A stretch of DNA of 64,000 bases. Source: Escherichia coli. GTDB taxonomy: Bacteria > Pseudomonadota > Gammaproteobacteria > Enterobacterales > Enterobacteriaceae. Location: assembly GCF_044324785.1 (NCBI RefSeq), contig NZ_CP172127.1; one strand, given 5' to 3'. The notes under the pieces were generated by a model, which was not told where the DNA came from, ran no database searches, and saw only the letters and a program-made list of their open reading frames with translations. Below are positions 30,827 through 32,680 of the stretch, piece by piece (position 1 is the first letter of the stretch; every line of letters starts with the position of its first letter). Position numbers and translations under genes: made by a program.

Positions 30827-32680
30827 ATGAAAATGACTTTGCCGTTTAAACCCCATGTGCTGGCGCTAATTTGCAGTGCCGGGCTTTGTGCCGCCTCTGC
30901 CGGGCTATATATAAAAAGCCGCACAGTGGAAGCGCCTGTGGAAGCGCAATCGACACAACTGACTGTGTCTGACGCTGCCGCGGTTACGCTTCCTGCAACG
31001 GTTTCCGCGCCTCCCGTAACACCCGCCGTCGTCAAATCCGCATTCAGCACTGCGCAAATAGATCAATGGGTTGCACCTGTCGCGCTGTACCCCGACTCTC
31101 TGCTTTCACAAGTGTTAATGGCATCAACCTATCCGACAAACGTTGCGCAAGCAGTGCAATGGTCGCACGATAATCCACTTAAACAAGGCGATGCTGCTAT
31201 TCAGGCGGTATCTGACCAGCCGTGGGATGCAAGCGTCAAATCACTGGTGGCCTTTCCACAGTTGATGGCGTTGATGGGCGAAAACCCGCAATGGGTGCAA
31301 AACCTGGGCGATGCTTTTCTGGCGCAGCCGCAGGACGTGATGGACTCGGTACAGCGATTGCGGCAACTGGCGCAACAAACCGGCTCGCTGAAGTCATCAA
31401 CCGAACAGAAAGTTATTACCACAACGAAGAAAGCTATACCGGTAAAACAGACAGTCACGGCTCCCGTCATACCATCCAATACCGTTTCAACTGCCAACCC
31501 TGTCATTACAGAGCCTGCAACAACCGTCATTTCCATTGAGCCCGCCAATCCTGATGTGGTCTATATTCCCAACTACAACCCAACCGTGGTTTACGGGAAC
31601 TGGGCCAATACTGCGTATCCGCCGGTTTATCTGCCACCACCAGCCGGAGAACCGTTTGTTGACAGCTTTGTGCGCGGATTCGGCTATAGCATGGGCGTTG
31701 CTACCACGTACGCACTATTTAGCAGCATCGACTGGGACGATGACGATCATGACCATCATCATCATGACGATGATGATTATCATCACCACGATGGCGGTCA
31801 TCGTGACGGTAATGGCTGGCAACACAACGGCGACAACATCAATATCGACGTCAACAATTTCAACCGTATCACCGGTGAGCATCTTACTGATAAGAATATG
31901 GCATGGCGGCACAATCCAAACTACCGTAATGGTGTGCCCTATCATGATCAGGATATGGCAAAGCGGTTTCACCAAACCGATGTTAACGGCGGCATGAGCG
32001 CCACGCAGTTACCTGCTCCAACACGCGACAGCCAGCGTCAGGCGGCAGCAAGTCAGTTTCAGCAACGAACACACGCCGCACCCGTCATTACGCGAGATAC
32101 CCAACGTCAGGCAGCGGCACAGCGGTTAAATGAAGCTGAACACTATGGGAGCTATGACGACTTCCGCGACTTCAGCCGTCGCCAACCACTGACCCAGCAA
32201 CAAAAGGACGTTGCTCGTCAGCGTTATCAGTCGGCCTCTCCTGAGCAGCGCCAGGCAGTCCGCGAGAAAATGCAGACTAACCCACAGAACCAGCAGCGAA
32301 GAGAGGCGGCGCGCCAGCGTATTCAGTCCGCCTCGCCTGAGCAGCGCCAGGCAGTCCGCGAGAAAATGCAGACTAACCCGCAGAACCAGCAGAGAAGAGA
32401 AGCGGCGCGTGAGCGTATTCAGTCCGCATCACCAGAGCAGCGCCAGGTGTTTAAGGAAAAAGTACAGCAGCGCCCACTGAACCAACAGCAACGTGATAAT
32501 GCCCGCCAGCGTATACAATCGGCATCACCTGAACAACGTCAGGTTTTTCGGGAGAAAGTTCAGGAGAGCCGCCCACAACGTCTAAACGACAGTAACCATA
32601 CTGTCAGGCTGAATAACGATCAACGGTCAGCAGTACGCGAACGTCTCTCTGAGCGCGGAGCAAGGCGACTGGAAAGGTAA
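30827..32680 (+). CDS. yacH: DUF3300-like secreted protein YacH (repeat-containing, His/Asp-rich)
   Basis: 617 aa, signal peptide MKMTLPFKPHVLALICSAGLCAASA, His/Asp cluster and 32-aa tandem repeats near the C-terminus. Confidence 0.85.
   Translation: MKMTLPFKPHVLALICSAGLCAASAGLYIKSRTVEAPVEAQSTQLTVSDAAAVTLPATVSAPPVTPAVVKSAFSTAQIDQWVAPVALYPDSLLSQVLMASTYPTNVAQAVQWSHDNPLKQGDAAIQAVSDQPWDASVKSLVAFPQLMALMGENPQWVQNLGDAFLAQPQDVMDSVQRLRQLAQQTGSLKSSTEQKVITTTKKAIPVKQTVTAPVIPSNTVSTANPVITEPATTVISIEPANPDVVYIPNYNPTVVYGNWANTAYPPVYLPPPAGEPFVDSFVRGFGYSMGVATTYALFSSIDWDDDDHDHHHHDDDDYHHHDGGHRDGNGWQHNGDNINIDVNNFNRITGEHLTDKNMAWRHNPNYRNGVPYHDQDMAKRFHQTDVNGGMSATQLPAPTRDSQRQAAASQFQQRTHAAPVITRDTQRQAAAQRLNEAEHYGSYDDFRDFSRRQPLTQQQKDVARQRYQSASPEQRQAVREKMQTNPQNQQRREAARQRIQSASPEQRQAVREKMQTNPQNQQRREAARERIQSASPEQRQVFKEKVQQRPLNQQQRDNARQRIQSASPEQRQVFREKVQESRPQRLNDSNHTVRLNNDQRSAVRERLSERGARRLER
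32216..32590. repeat. about 96-bp tandem repeat (roughly 4 units) inside yacH
   Basis: Units encode Q/RQRIQSASPEQRQAVREKMQTNPQNQQRREAA; two units nearly identical, two degenerate. Confidence 0.85.

What the first reader, a model, noticed from the sequence alone, without database searches (positions are those of the whole stretch)
32216..32590. About 96-bp tandem coding repeats in the C-terminal part of yacH
Seen: roughly four consecutive units encoding ...QRIQSASPEQRQAVREKMQTNPQNQQRREAAR...; two are nearly identical at the DNA level, which implies recent expansion and potential copy-number variation. The frame-shifted track ORF 32211..32480 is an artefact of this repeat.
Basis: seen in the sequence. 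Interest (0 to 1): 0.35.

Follow-up and report, generated by a model that had tools for sequence, protein, structure and literature searches.

The report
Variable 96-bp coding repeat in yacH
The end of the E. coli envelope-stress gene yacH holds four in-frame copies of a 96-base unit, each encoding a 32-residue helix-turn-helix module, and strains carry three, four or rarely five copies; this is a real but ordinary coding minisatellite in a protein of unknown function.

Summary
yacH (window 30827..32680, +, 617 aa, Pfam DUF3300) has four head-to-tail 96-bp units with no indels. They lie at 32219-32602, or 32186-32569 in the better-fitting phase. Lag-96 identity is 0.73 against 0.30 for codon shuffles (z = 15.8).

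Copy-number variation is real. In two systematic samples (100 rows) of 5,425 complete E. coli genomes, about 53% carry 4 units and about 44% carry 3. The 3-unit alleles come in two forms, A-B-C and A1-A2-C. A 5-unit allele also exists.

"Recent expansion" is not supported for this window. Units 1 and 2 are 88/96 identical, with synonymous divergence of about 0.36, and the pair is shared by distant lineages.

The shifted ORF 32211..32480 is an artefact. Between strains, substitutions fall on yacH third codon positions, and the ORF's TTG start is not conserved.

Each unit is predicted, with moderate confidence, to form a 16-residue and a 12-residue helix, each starting at a proline. The array is basic (net +13) and 23% Gln. 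It evolves under purifying selection (dN/dS about 0.1). Outside Escherichia, a different 17-residue repeat replaces it. The nearest known motif is the repeat of DUF3106 proteins, but the match is below threshold. Function is unknown. Published data link yacH to CpxR and to cationic peptides.

The parts
30827..32680 (+). yacH coding sequence (617 aa), a DUF3300 domain-containing protein lying between acnB (27875..30625, -) and lpdA (32751..34238, -)
   Evidence: ORF list. Pfam DUF3300 at 265.6 bits against a cut-off of 25, covering aa 75-333. RefSeq annotates the matching gene as yacH in 5,425 of 5,426 E. coli genomes.
30827..30916 (+). N-terminal signal peptide or signal anchor (MKMTLPFKPHVLALICSAGLCAASAGLYIK), which places the rest of the protein outside the cytoplasm
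   Evidence: This is the only strongly hydrophobic segment: Kyte-Doolittle 19-residue maximum 2.04, against 1.29 elsewhere. AlphaFold predicts helix 9-29. The A-S-A motif at residues 23-25 is read by eye as a possible signal peptidase site; this is an inference.
31049..31825 (+). DUF3300 domain region (aa 75-333). The repeat lies outside it.
   Evidence: Pfam match. Residues 71-185 are modelled as helices with pLDDT 66-85. Most invariant columns of the ortholog alignment fall in this region.
31736..31792 (+). Asp/His-rich tract (DDDDHDHHHHDDDDYHHHD), a second, shorter length-variable repeat in the same gene
   Evidence: TRF period 24 at 31740-31785. Family D2. Insertions of DH and DHDHHHHD in other strains.
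32186..32569 (+). The repeat array in its best-fitting phase: 4 complete units of 96 nt (32186-32281, 32282-32377, 32378-32473, 32474-32569). Each unit encodes one long helix followed by one short helix.
   Evidence: the repeat finder family D1. Helix boundaries from AlphaFold.
32219..32314 (+). Unit 1 (A1), aa 465-496, QRYQSASPEQRQAVREKMQTNPQNQQRREAAR
32315..32410 (+). Unit 2 (A2), aa 497-528, QRIQSASPEQRQAVREKMQTNPQNQQRREAAR. The 32-aa deletion in the three aligned 3-unit alleles is placed across the unit 1/unit 2 boundary, but its position within a tandem repeat is not uniquely defined.
   Evidence: Deletion of 32 aa placed from residue 489 in L001, L004 and L005. For CFT073 (L005) the unit matrix shows the B-type unit as the missing one.
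32411..32506 (+). Unit 3 (B), aa 529-560, ERIQSASPEQRQVFKEKVQQRPLNQQQRDNAR. No B-type unit is present in the CFT073-type 3-unit allele.
32507..32602 (+). Unit 4 (C), aa 561-592, QRIQSASPEQRQVFREKVQESRPQRLNDSNHT. Its 3' half has decayed.
32615..32677 (+). Conserved C-terminal helix (LNNDQRSAVRERLSERGARRLER), present in all Enterobacteriaceae orthologs examined
   Evidence: Alignment A2. Helix 597-616 in the model.
32211..32480 (+). A +1-frame ORF of 89 codons inside the array. It is not a gene.
   Evidence: ORF list. Codon-position pattern of substitutions and loss of the start codon in other strains.

Best explanation
This is an in-frame coding minisatellite. Four tandem 96-bp units encode four 32-residue modules in the C-terminal tail of YacH, a DUF3300 protein that is exported across the inner membrane.

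Shown:
- The units are exact multiples of three bases and contain no indels.
- Strains of E. coli carry 3, 4 or rarely 5 units. The alleles differ in which unit is missing or extra.
- Within the gene, the array is more divergent between alleles than the 5' part, yet its protein sequence is conserved (dN/dS about 0.1; the SPEQRQ core is invariant).
- Other genera have a different, 17-residue repeat in the same place.

Inferred mechanism of variation: unequal homologous recombination or replication slippage between neighbouring units adds or removes whole modules. Gene conversion mixes variants between units A1 and A2.

Inferred structure: each module is a helix-turn-helix. One helix has about 16 residues (PxNQQRRxAARQRIQS) and one about 12 (PEQRQxxREKxQ). 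Each helix starts at a proline that follows Ser or Asn.

Inferred function, with low confidence: the modules form a strongly basic, glutamine-rich helical tail. Each full unit adds 32 residues and about +3 to +4 charge. The tail would act in the cell envelope as a length-adjustable spacer or a binding surface for anionic partners. That would fit the published CpxR regulation of yacH and the altered protamine survival of a yacH deletion mutant.
For: - Repeat and its significance.
- Gene identity and domain.
- Copy-number classes differing by exactly 96 nt. In one search (40 rows), 20 rows show 4 units and 18 show 3. In one search (60 rows), 33 show 4 units and about 26 show 3.
- Allele structures: A1-A2-B-C (this window, K-12-like, N3), A-B-C (2018-10-2CC, Ecol_542), A1-A2-C (CFT073), A-A-A-B-C (P0001).
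- Mixing between A1 and A2: only 2 of 96 positions separate them consistently across three 4-unit alleles, although each strain's own pair differs at 8-9 positions.
- Selection: window against K-12, repeat region dS 0.188, dN 0.020; 5' part dS 0.117, dN 0.012.
- Helices: 472-483, 486-501, 504-515, 518-533, 536-547, 550-564 and 568-579, with pLDDT 50-79, in two independent AlphaFold runs.
- Charge and composition: net +13, 23% Gln.
- Orthologs: three Escherichia-lineage comparators have 3 units each. These are E. albertii, the strain labelled E. coli SCPM-O-B-8794 (85% best-segment protein identity) and the divergent AST85 allele, which has 34-aa units. Klebsiella, Kluyvera, Enterobacter and Raoultella have 1-3 copies of 'QNPTAQQQQRRExAKSH' instead.
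- Published context: yacH is CpxR-regulated, and the yacH deletion mutant survives protamine better than wild type (PMC9600279). yacH is induced by a cathelicidin-derived peptide in UTI89 (PMC6737244).
Against: - Tertiary structure is not resolved (pTM 0.23-0.28), and no fold match was found (best Foldseek E = 5.9). The tail could therefore be largely flexible.
- Both 3-unit and 4-unit alleles are common, so any phenotype of a single unit must be small.
- yacH is a pseudogene in several Salmonella Typhimurium strains (PMC3391293, PMC10048834), so the gene is dispensable there.
- No experiment addresses the tail.
- The dN/dS values rest on small counts: 14 synonymous and 6 non-synonymous differences in the array.
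Confidence: 0.8

Rival explanations
1. The tail is neutral and low-complexity. On this view the array is an intrinsically disordered Gln/Arg-rich region whose length has no functional consequence, and copy number drifts.
For: - Model confidence is low to moderate and there is no tertiary fold.
- 3-unit and 4-unit alleles coexist at high frequency.
- The region is replaced by unrelated short repeats in other genera.
- The gene is lost in some Salmonella strains.
Against: - dN/dS is about 0.1 in the array and 0.07 between u1 and u2.
- The residues R2, S5 and P8-E-Q-R-Q12 are invariant across 13 distinct units from four lineages.
- The alternation of helices is regular in both models.
Confidence: 0.35
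2. Recent expansion in this lineage. On this view units 1 and 2 arose by a fresh duplication in the strain that the window comes from.
For: u1 and u2 are the most similar pair: 88/96 nt and 31/32 aa.
Against: - dS between u1 and u2 is about 0.36, which is more than the allelic dS of the gene (0.117-0.188).
- The same A1-A2 arrangement occurs in K-12-like, N3 and CFT073 alleles.
- u1 is closer to unit 1 of N3 (92/96) than to its own u2 (88/96).
Confidence: 0.07
3. The repeat is a domesticated copy of the DUF3106-type periplasmic repeat. On this view the YacH units are homologous to the (S/T)PE(Q/E)RxAxRE(K/R)xQ repeats of small secreted DUF3106 proteins and share their function, which is unknown.
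For: - Searching the C-terminal 185 aa against 1.84 billion representatives recovered small signal-peptide proteins made of such repeats (P0138, P0139, P0134, P0142).
- P0138 and P0139 pass the Pfam DUF3106 cut-off, at 29.3 and 32.7 bits against 24.3.
- The unit profile aligns to them with hhalign probability 94.6% and 87.7% over 25 and 22 columns.
Against: - The YacH array itself scores only 16.6 bits (E = 0.011) against DUF3106, below the cut-off, and the longer C-terminal piece scores 8 bits.
- The shared motif is short and compositionally simple, so convergence is plausible.
- The DUF3106 unit length (about 17-20 aa) differs from 32 aa.
Confidence: 0.2
4. The repeat is a phase-variable contingency locus, in which changes in copy number switch yacH on and off.
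For: It is a tandem repeat inside a gene for an exported protein.
Against: - The unit is 96 nt, which is 32 codons, so gain or loss never shifts the frame.
- All alleles examined remain full-length ORFs.
- Alleles look the same within clones: the K-12 derivatives and O157:H7 rows all show 4 units, and six rows (H82-H87) give identical match statistics.
Confidence: 0.02
5. The +1-frame ORF 32211..32480 encodes a real overlapping protein.
For: It is 89 codons long without a stop.
Against: - Substitutions between strains concentrate on yacH third codon positions.
- The TTG start reads as a proline codon in the K-12-like and N3 alleles.
- Its predicted product changes at many residues between strains.
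Confidence: 0.02

Closest known systems
In-frame coding minisatellites (VNTRs) in bacterial envelope and surface proteins, of the kind used as MLVA markers
   Same: The units are head-to-tail and a multiple of three bases. Copy number is polymorphic between strains. Whole protein modules are gained or lost, presumably by unequal recombination or slippage. Alleles are stable within clones.
   Different: The range is small (3-5 copies) and the units are fairly diverged (50-92% identity), so resolution for typing is low. This is not the published 96-bp MLVA locus ms11: neither ms11 primer occurs in this 64-kb window even with 3 mismatches allowed. I found no paper describing the yacH repeat.
Pfam DUF3300 (PF11737), the family of YacH
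   Same: The protein is a clear member (265.6 bits). Orthologs in Enterobacteriaceae share the same layout: signal sequence, Ala/Pro linker, DUF3300 domain, Asp/His tract, two RDxQRQAA motifs, a variable Gln/Arg-rich repeat zone and a conserved C-terminal helix.
   Different: The 32-residue repeat lies outside the Pfam domain and occurs only in Escherichia. Other genera carry 17-residue 'QNPTAQQQQRRExAKSH' repeats there. No member has a solved structure detectable by sequence.
Pfam DUF3106 (PF11304): small secreted proteins built of TPE(Q/E)R...RE(K/R)xQ repeats
   Same: The first 22-25 residues of the YacH unit (RxQSAsPEQRQxxREKxQ) align to DUF3106 repeats such as RLESMTPEQREAVREKLQS. Both occur in exported proteins.
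   Different: The YacH array is below the family's score cut-off (16.6 against 24.3 bits). Its unit is longer (32 aa) and contains a second helix, NPxNQQRRxAAR. DUF3106 itself has no known function.
LTXXQ-motif periplasmic proteins (CpxP, Spy, ZraP; Pfam PF07813 and PF13801)
   Same: They are periplasmic helical proteins linked to the Cpx envelope-stress response. Their motif has a similar look (hydroxyl residue, x, x, Gln, basic residue). That resemblance is from my own recollection and served only as a lead.
   Different: There was no Pfam LTXXQ or Metal_resist hit for the YacH C-terminus even at E <= 10. Only the DUF3106 proteins show faint, sub-threshold matches to these families. No fold match was found.

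Membership tests
Coding minisatellite / VNTR | Head-to-tail copies of one unit, above chance | tested here: met
   Four units spaced exactly 96 nt apart. Lag-96 identity 0.726 against 0.299 +/- 0.027 in codon shuffles.
Coding minisatellite / VNTR | Copy number differs between strains of the species | tested here: met
   3-unit, 4-unit and 5-unit alleles. About 53% of a 100-row systematic sample of 5,425 genomes have 4 units and about 44% have 3.
Coding minisatellite / VNTR | Unit length a multiple of 3, and the reading frame kept in all alleles | tested here: met
   96 nt = 32 codons. All six fetched E. coli alleles are annotated as intact CDS of 585-621 aa.
Pfam DUF3300 (PF11737) | Score above the gathering cut-off (25 bits) | tested here: met
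   265.6 bits, E = 4.5e-79, aa 75-333. The repeat (aa 454-592) lies outside the matched region.
Pfam DUF3106 (PF11304) | Score above the gathering cut-off (24.3 bits) | tested here: not met
   16.6 bits for the array alone and 8 bits for the C-terminal 226 aa.
Pfam DUF3106 (PF11304) | Profile-level similarity of the repeat unit to bona fide members | tested here: inconclusive
   hhalign probability 94.6% (P0139) and 87.7% (P0138) over 25 and 22 columns. These are pairwise comparisons of a short, compositionally biased motif.
LTXXQ / CpxP-Spy-ZraP (PF07813, PF13801) | Any match to the family models | tested here: not met
   No hit at E <= 10 in Pfam. No Spy or CpxP match among the NCBIfam hits for YacH or its C-terminus.
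MLVA locus ms11 (96-bp unit, scheme attributed to Gorge et al. in the papers read) | Published primers flank the repeat | tested here: not met
   Primers GAAACAGGCCCAGGCTACAC and CTGGCGCTGGTTATGGGTAT gave 0 matches in the window with up to 3 mismatches. The reported alleles of 4.5-7 units also do not fit.
Phase-variable contingency locus | Repeat changes shift the frame or alter a promoter | tested here: not met
   The unit is 32 codons and lies inside the CDS. All alleles stay in frame.

The most novel reading that the evidence does not exclude
The Escherichia-specific 32-residue modules may be functional binding units of an envelope-stress protein, related to the DUF3106 periplasmic repeat. 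On this reading, lineage-specific unit number (3, 4 or 5) and unit type (A, B, C) tune how YacH interacts with anionic envelope components or with host cationic antimicrobial peptides. The yacH allele would then contribute to differences in peptide susceptibility between E. coli lineages. The unusually high divergence of yacH relative to its flanks, including rare alleles only 74% identical, would reflect diversifying pressure on an exposed protein.
Probability: 0.08. Interest if true: 0.5.

Novelty: new member of a known kind. Interest (0 to 1): 0.2.

Why it matters
It matters little on its own. The repeat documents a stable, lineage-tracking length polymorphism in a conserved E. coli gene of unknown function. 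It defines the module (32 aa, two helices, net +2 to +4 charge per unit) that any study of YacH would need to consider. It also warns annotators about the spurious +1-frame ORF.

If the tail turns out to mediate the reported effect of yacH on survival of cationic peptides, the natural 3-, 4- and 5-unit alleles would be a ready-made allelic series for testing that.

Tried and rejected
- **MLVA locus ms11.** I recalled that ms11 has a 96-bp unit, and the papers confirm this. Its primers are absent from the window, so it is a different locus.
- **LTXXQ / CpxP-Spy idea.** No Pfam or NCBIfam support.
- **16-residue sub-period within the unit.** Protein autocorrelation at lag 16 is 0.12, the same as background, against 0.73 at lag 32. 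Rejected.
- **Fold search of the C-terminal model against the PDB.** Best E = 5.9 and TM <= 0.17, which is meaningless. pTM was 0.23, so I ran no further fold searches.
- **PDB sequence search with the ortholog profile.** No hit at E <= 1.
- **Rfam scan of 30400-33000.** Nothing near threshold: one match at 23.7 bits against a gathering score of 40, located in the yacH-lpdA spacer.
- **Promoter and terminator scan.** Counts are at the level expected by chance, and nothing is specific to the repeat.
- **Mapping the recombination breakpoints of 3-unit alleles.** Only 2 positions reliably distinguish A1 from A2, so the breakpoints cannot be placed.
- **Polarising gain against loss.** The three comparators (E. 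albertii, the strain labelled E. coli SCPM-O-B-8794, and the AST85 allele) each have 3 units, but of differing types. The ancestral state in E. coli stays uncertain.
- **Literature.** No paper in the searchable library describes the yacH repeat.
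Full report
**Location and gene.** The finding lies in a 617-codon ORF at window 30827..32680 (+), between acnB (27875..30625, -) and lpdA (32751..34238, -). 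The protein matches Pfam DUF3300 at 265.6 bits over residues 75-333. The gene matches the RefSeq-annotated yacH of 5,425 of 5,426 complete E. coli genomes. The best yacH match is only 97.9% (strain N3). The adjacent 12 kb is 99.5% identical to the same strain. The window is therefore E. coli-like, from a sparsely sampled lineage, and yacH is less conserved than its neighbours.

**The observation.** Tandem Repeats Finder reports a period of 96 with no indels from 32219. The repeat finder reports four copies spaced exactly 96 nt apart at 32186-32569.

In the TRF phase the units are 32219-32314, 32315-32410, 32411-32506 and 32507-32602. They encode:

- QRYQSASPEQRQAVREKMQTNPQNQQRREAAR
- QRIQSASPEQRQAVREKMQTNPQNQQRREAAR
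- ERIQSASPEQRQVFKEKVQQRPLNQQQRDNAR
- QRIQSASPEQRQVFREKVQESRPQRLNDSNHT

Units 1 and 2 share 88/96 nt and 31/32 aa. The other pairs share 48-64/96 nt. Lag-96 identity over the array is 0.726. Codon shuffles gave 0.299 +/- 0.027, with a maximum of 0.413 in 5,000 shuffles.

**Copy-number variation.** Two searches of the complete E. coli genomes returned rows taken at even steps down the ranking.

| Search | 4 units | 3 units | Other |
|---|---|---|---|
| Whole gene, 40 rows | 20 rows (1854 or 1866 nt) | 18 rows (1758, 1764, or the CFT073 type) | 2 rows |
| 3' 691 nt, 60 rows | 33 rows (691 nt) | about 26 rows (595 or 579 nt, or CFT073-like) | 1 highly divergent |

The size classes differ by exactly 96 nt. 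I fetched representative alleles, and they show these structures:

- A1-A2-B-C in this window, a K-12-like strain and N3
- A-B-C in 2018-10-2CC and Ecol_542
- A1-A2-C in CFT073

The protein database also holds a 648-aa allele with five units, three of them identical A units (P0001). Alleles look uniform within clones: the K-12 derivatives and O157:H7 rows all have 4 units, and six further rows give identical match statistics. This is a slowly changing, lineage-tracking minisatellite, not a hypermutable one.

**Age of the u1/u2 pair.** In this window u1 and u2 differ by 6 synonymous and 2 non-synonymous changes (dS about 0.36, dN 0.027). The 5' part of the gene has dS 0.117 between this window and K-12. 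The A1-A2 pair exists in several distant alleles. Window u1 is closer to N3 unit 1 (92/96) than to window u2 (88/96). Only 2 of 96 positions separate A1 from A2 consistently across strains. That suggests exchange between the two units.

**The frame-shifted ORF.** ORF 32211..32480 is in the +1 frame relative to yacH. Between this window and the K-12-like and N3 alleles, 12 of 18 and 12 of 17 differences in that span fall on yacH third codon positions. The TTG start reads as a proline codon in both other strains.

**What the units encode.** I ran two AlphaFold predictions, one on the full protein with 19 orthologs and one on the C-terminal 223 residues with 16. Both give the same alternation of helices through the array: 472-483, 486-501, 504-515, 518-533, 536-547, 550-564 and 568-579. 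pLDDT there is 50-79. pTM is only 0.23-0.28, so the packing of the helices is not determined.

Each helix begins at the proline of an S-P or N-P pair. Each 32-residue unit is therefore one helix of about 16 residues plus one of about 12. The array is 23% Gln and has a net charge of +13, or +2 to +4 per unit. This contrasts with the acidic Asp/His tract upstream, which has a net charge of -11.

Selection is purifying: dN/dS is about 0.11 for the array between this window and K-12. R2, S5 and P8-E-Q-R-Q12 are invariant in 13 distinct units from four Escherichia lineages.

**Distribution.** A scan of one genome per species found 13 loci.

- E. albertii and a strain labelled E. coli SCPM-O-B-8794 (85% best-segment protein identity) each have three 32-residue units.
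- The divergent allele of strain AST85 has three 34-residue units.
- Klebsiella, Kluyvera, Enterobacter and Raoultella have 1-3 copies of a 17-residue 'QNPTAQQQQRRExAKSH' repeat in the same position. Buttiauxella and Franconibacter carry a less regular Gln/Arg-rich stretch there.

All of these sit between conserved RDxQRQAA motifs and a conserved C-terminal helix. The zone is thus a family-wide hotspot for lineage-specific repeats, and the 32-residue unit is confined to Escherichia.

**Relatives of the repeat.** I searched the C-terminal 185 residues against 1.84 billion representative proteins. Only 23 hits came back. Most are fragments of YacH itself. A few are small signal-peptide proteins made of (S/T)PE(Q/E)RxAxRE(K/R)xQ repeats, and two of these pass the Pfam DUF3106 cut-off.

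The YacH array scores 16.6 bits against DUF3106, below the 24.3-bit cut-off. A profile of the units aligns to the two DUF3106 proteins with hhalign probabilities of 94.6% and 87.7% over 22-25 columns. This is a motif-level resemblance, not membership.

There was no match to LTXXQ, CpxP or Spy models. No solved structure was found by sequence, no fold match and no RNA family.

**Published context.**

- yacH is reported as CpxR-regulated.
- Its transcription falls with protamine and cecropin A.
- A yacH deletion mutant survives protamine better than wild type (PMC9600279).
- It is induced by a cathelicidin-derived peptide in UTI89 (PMC6737244).
- In several Salmonella Typhimurium strains it is a pseudogene, through an 8-bp deletion in the Asp/His tract (PMC3391293, PMC10048834).

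None of these papers, nor any other I could find, mentions the 96-bp repeat. The published 96-bp MLVA marker ms11 is a different locus, because its primers are absent from the window.

**Verdict.** This is a real in-frame minisatellite with genuine copy-number polymorphism. It encodes basic Gln/Arg-rich helix-turn-helix modules in the tail of an exported protein of unknown function. The most likely mechanism of variation is unequal recombination or slippage between units; this is inferred. The role of the tail is unknown. My best guess is a modular spacer or anion-binding helical tail acting in the envelope, held with low confidence. It is an ordinary kind of feature, and interest is low.

Noticed in passing
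window 31736-31792: The Asp/His-rich tract of YacH (DDDDHDHHHHDDDDYHHHD; TRF period 24) also varies in length among E. coli: +DH in Ecol_542, +DHDHHHHD in CFT073, and one His more or fewer in others. The equivalent tract in Salmonella Typhimurium is where an 8-bp deletion makes yacH a pseudogene.
   Followed up: partly
L006 601-2460 (E. coli AST85), compared with window 30827-32680: AST85 carries a yacH allele only 74% identical in DNA to the window's. That is more distant than E. albertii's allele (82.6%). Its acnB and lpdA flanks are nevertheless 99.4% and 98.1% identical to the window. AST85 is one of 9 of 5,425 genomes that match the window's yacH at only 60-80% identity; the other 8 were not examined. 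This suggests allele replacement or a very old allele. The repeat units in this allele are 34 aa long.
   Followed up: partly
window 30827-32680 compared with 33000-45000: yacH is markedly less conserved than its neighbours. Its best E. coli match is 97.9%, against 99.5% for the adjacent 12 kb in the same strain (N3). In E. albertii, yacH is 82.6% identical against 96.5% for the upstream acnB side.
   Followed up: partly
window 32021-32050 and 32090-32119: A pair of 'TRD(S/T)QRQAAA' segments lies 69 nt apart (77% identical). Both copies are conserved across most Enterobacteriaceae orthologs examined, unlike the 96-bp array.
   Followed up: partly
P0002, P0067 and L003 (alleles of the same gene): Other in-frame duplications occur in yacH. 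A 45-aa duplication sits just upstream of the array (662-aa allele, seen on 19 contigs). A 17-aa partial duplication lies within unit 3 (634 aa). Strain N3 has a VEAP duplication at residue 33.
   Followed up: partly
window about 32690-32722: By eye, there is a GC-rich stem-loop (GCGGC-GTGGTTA-GCCGC) flanked by an A run and a T run, between the convergent yacH and lpdA genes. It looks like a bidirectional intrinsic terminator. The consensus scan did not flag it.
   Followed up: no
P0128 (350-aa database protein): A public gene call fuses out-of-frame stretches of yacH, including the +1-frame peptide of ORF 32211..32480. This shows that the artefactual frame does get called on error-containing contigs.
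   Followed up: no
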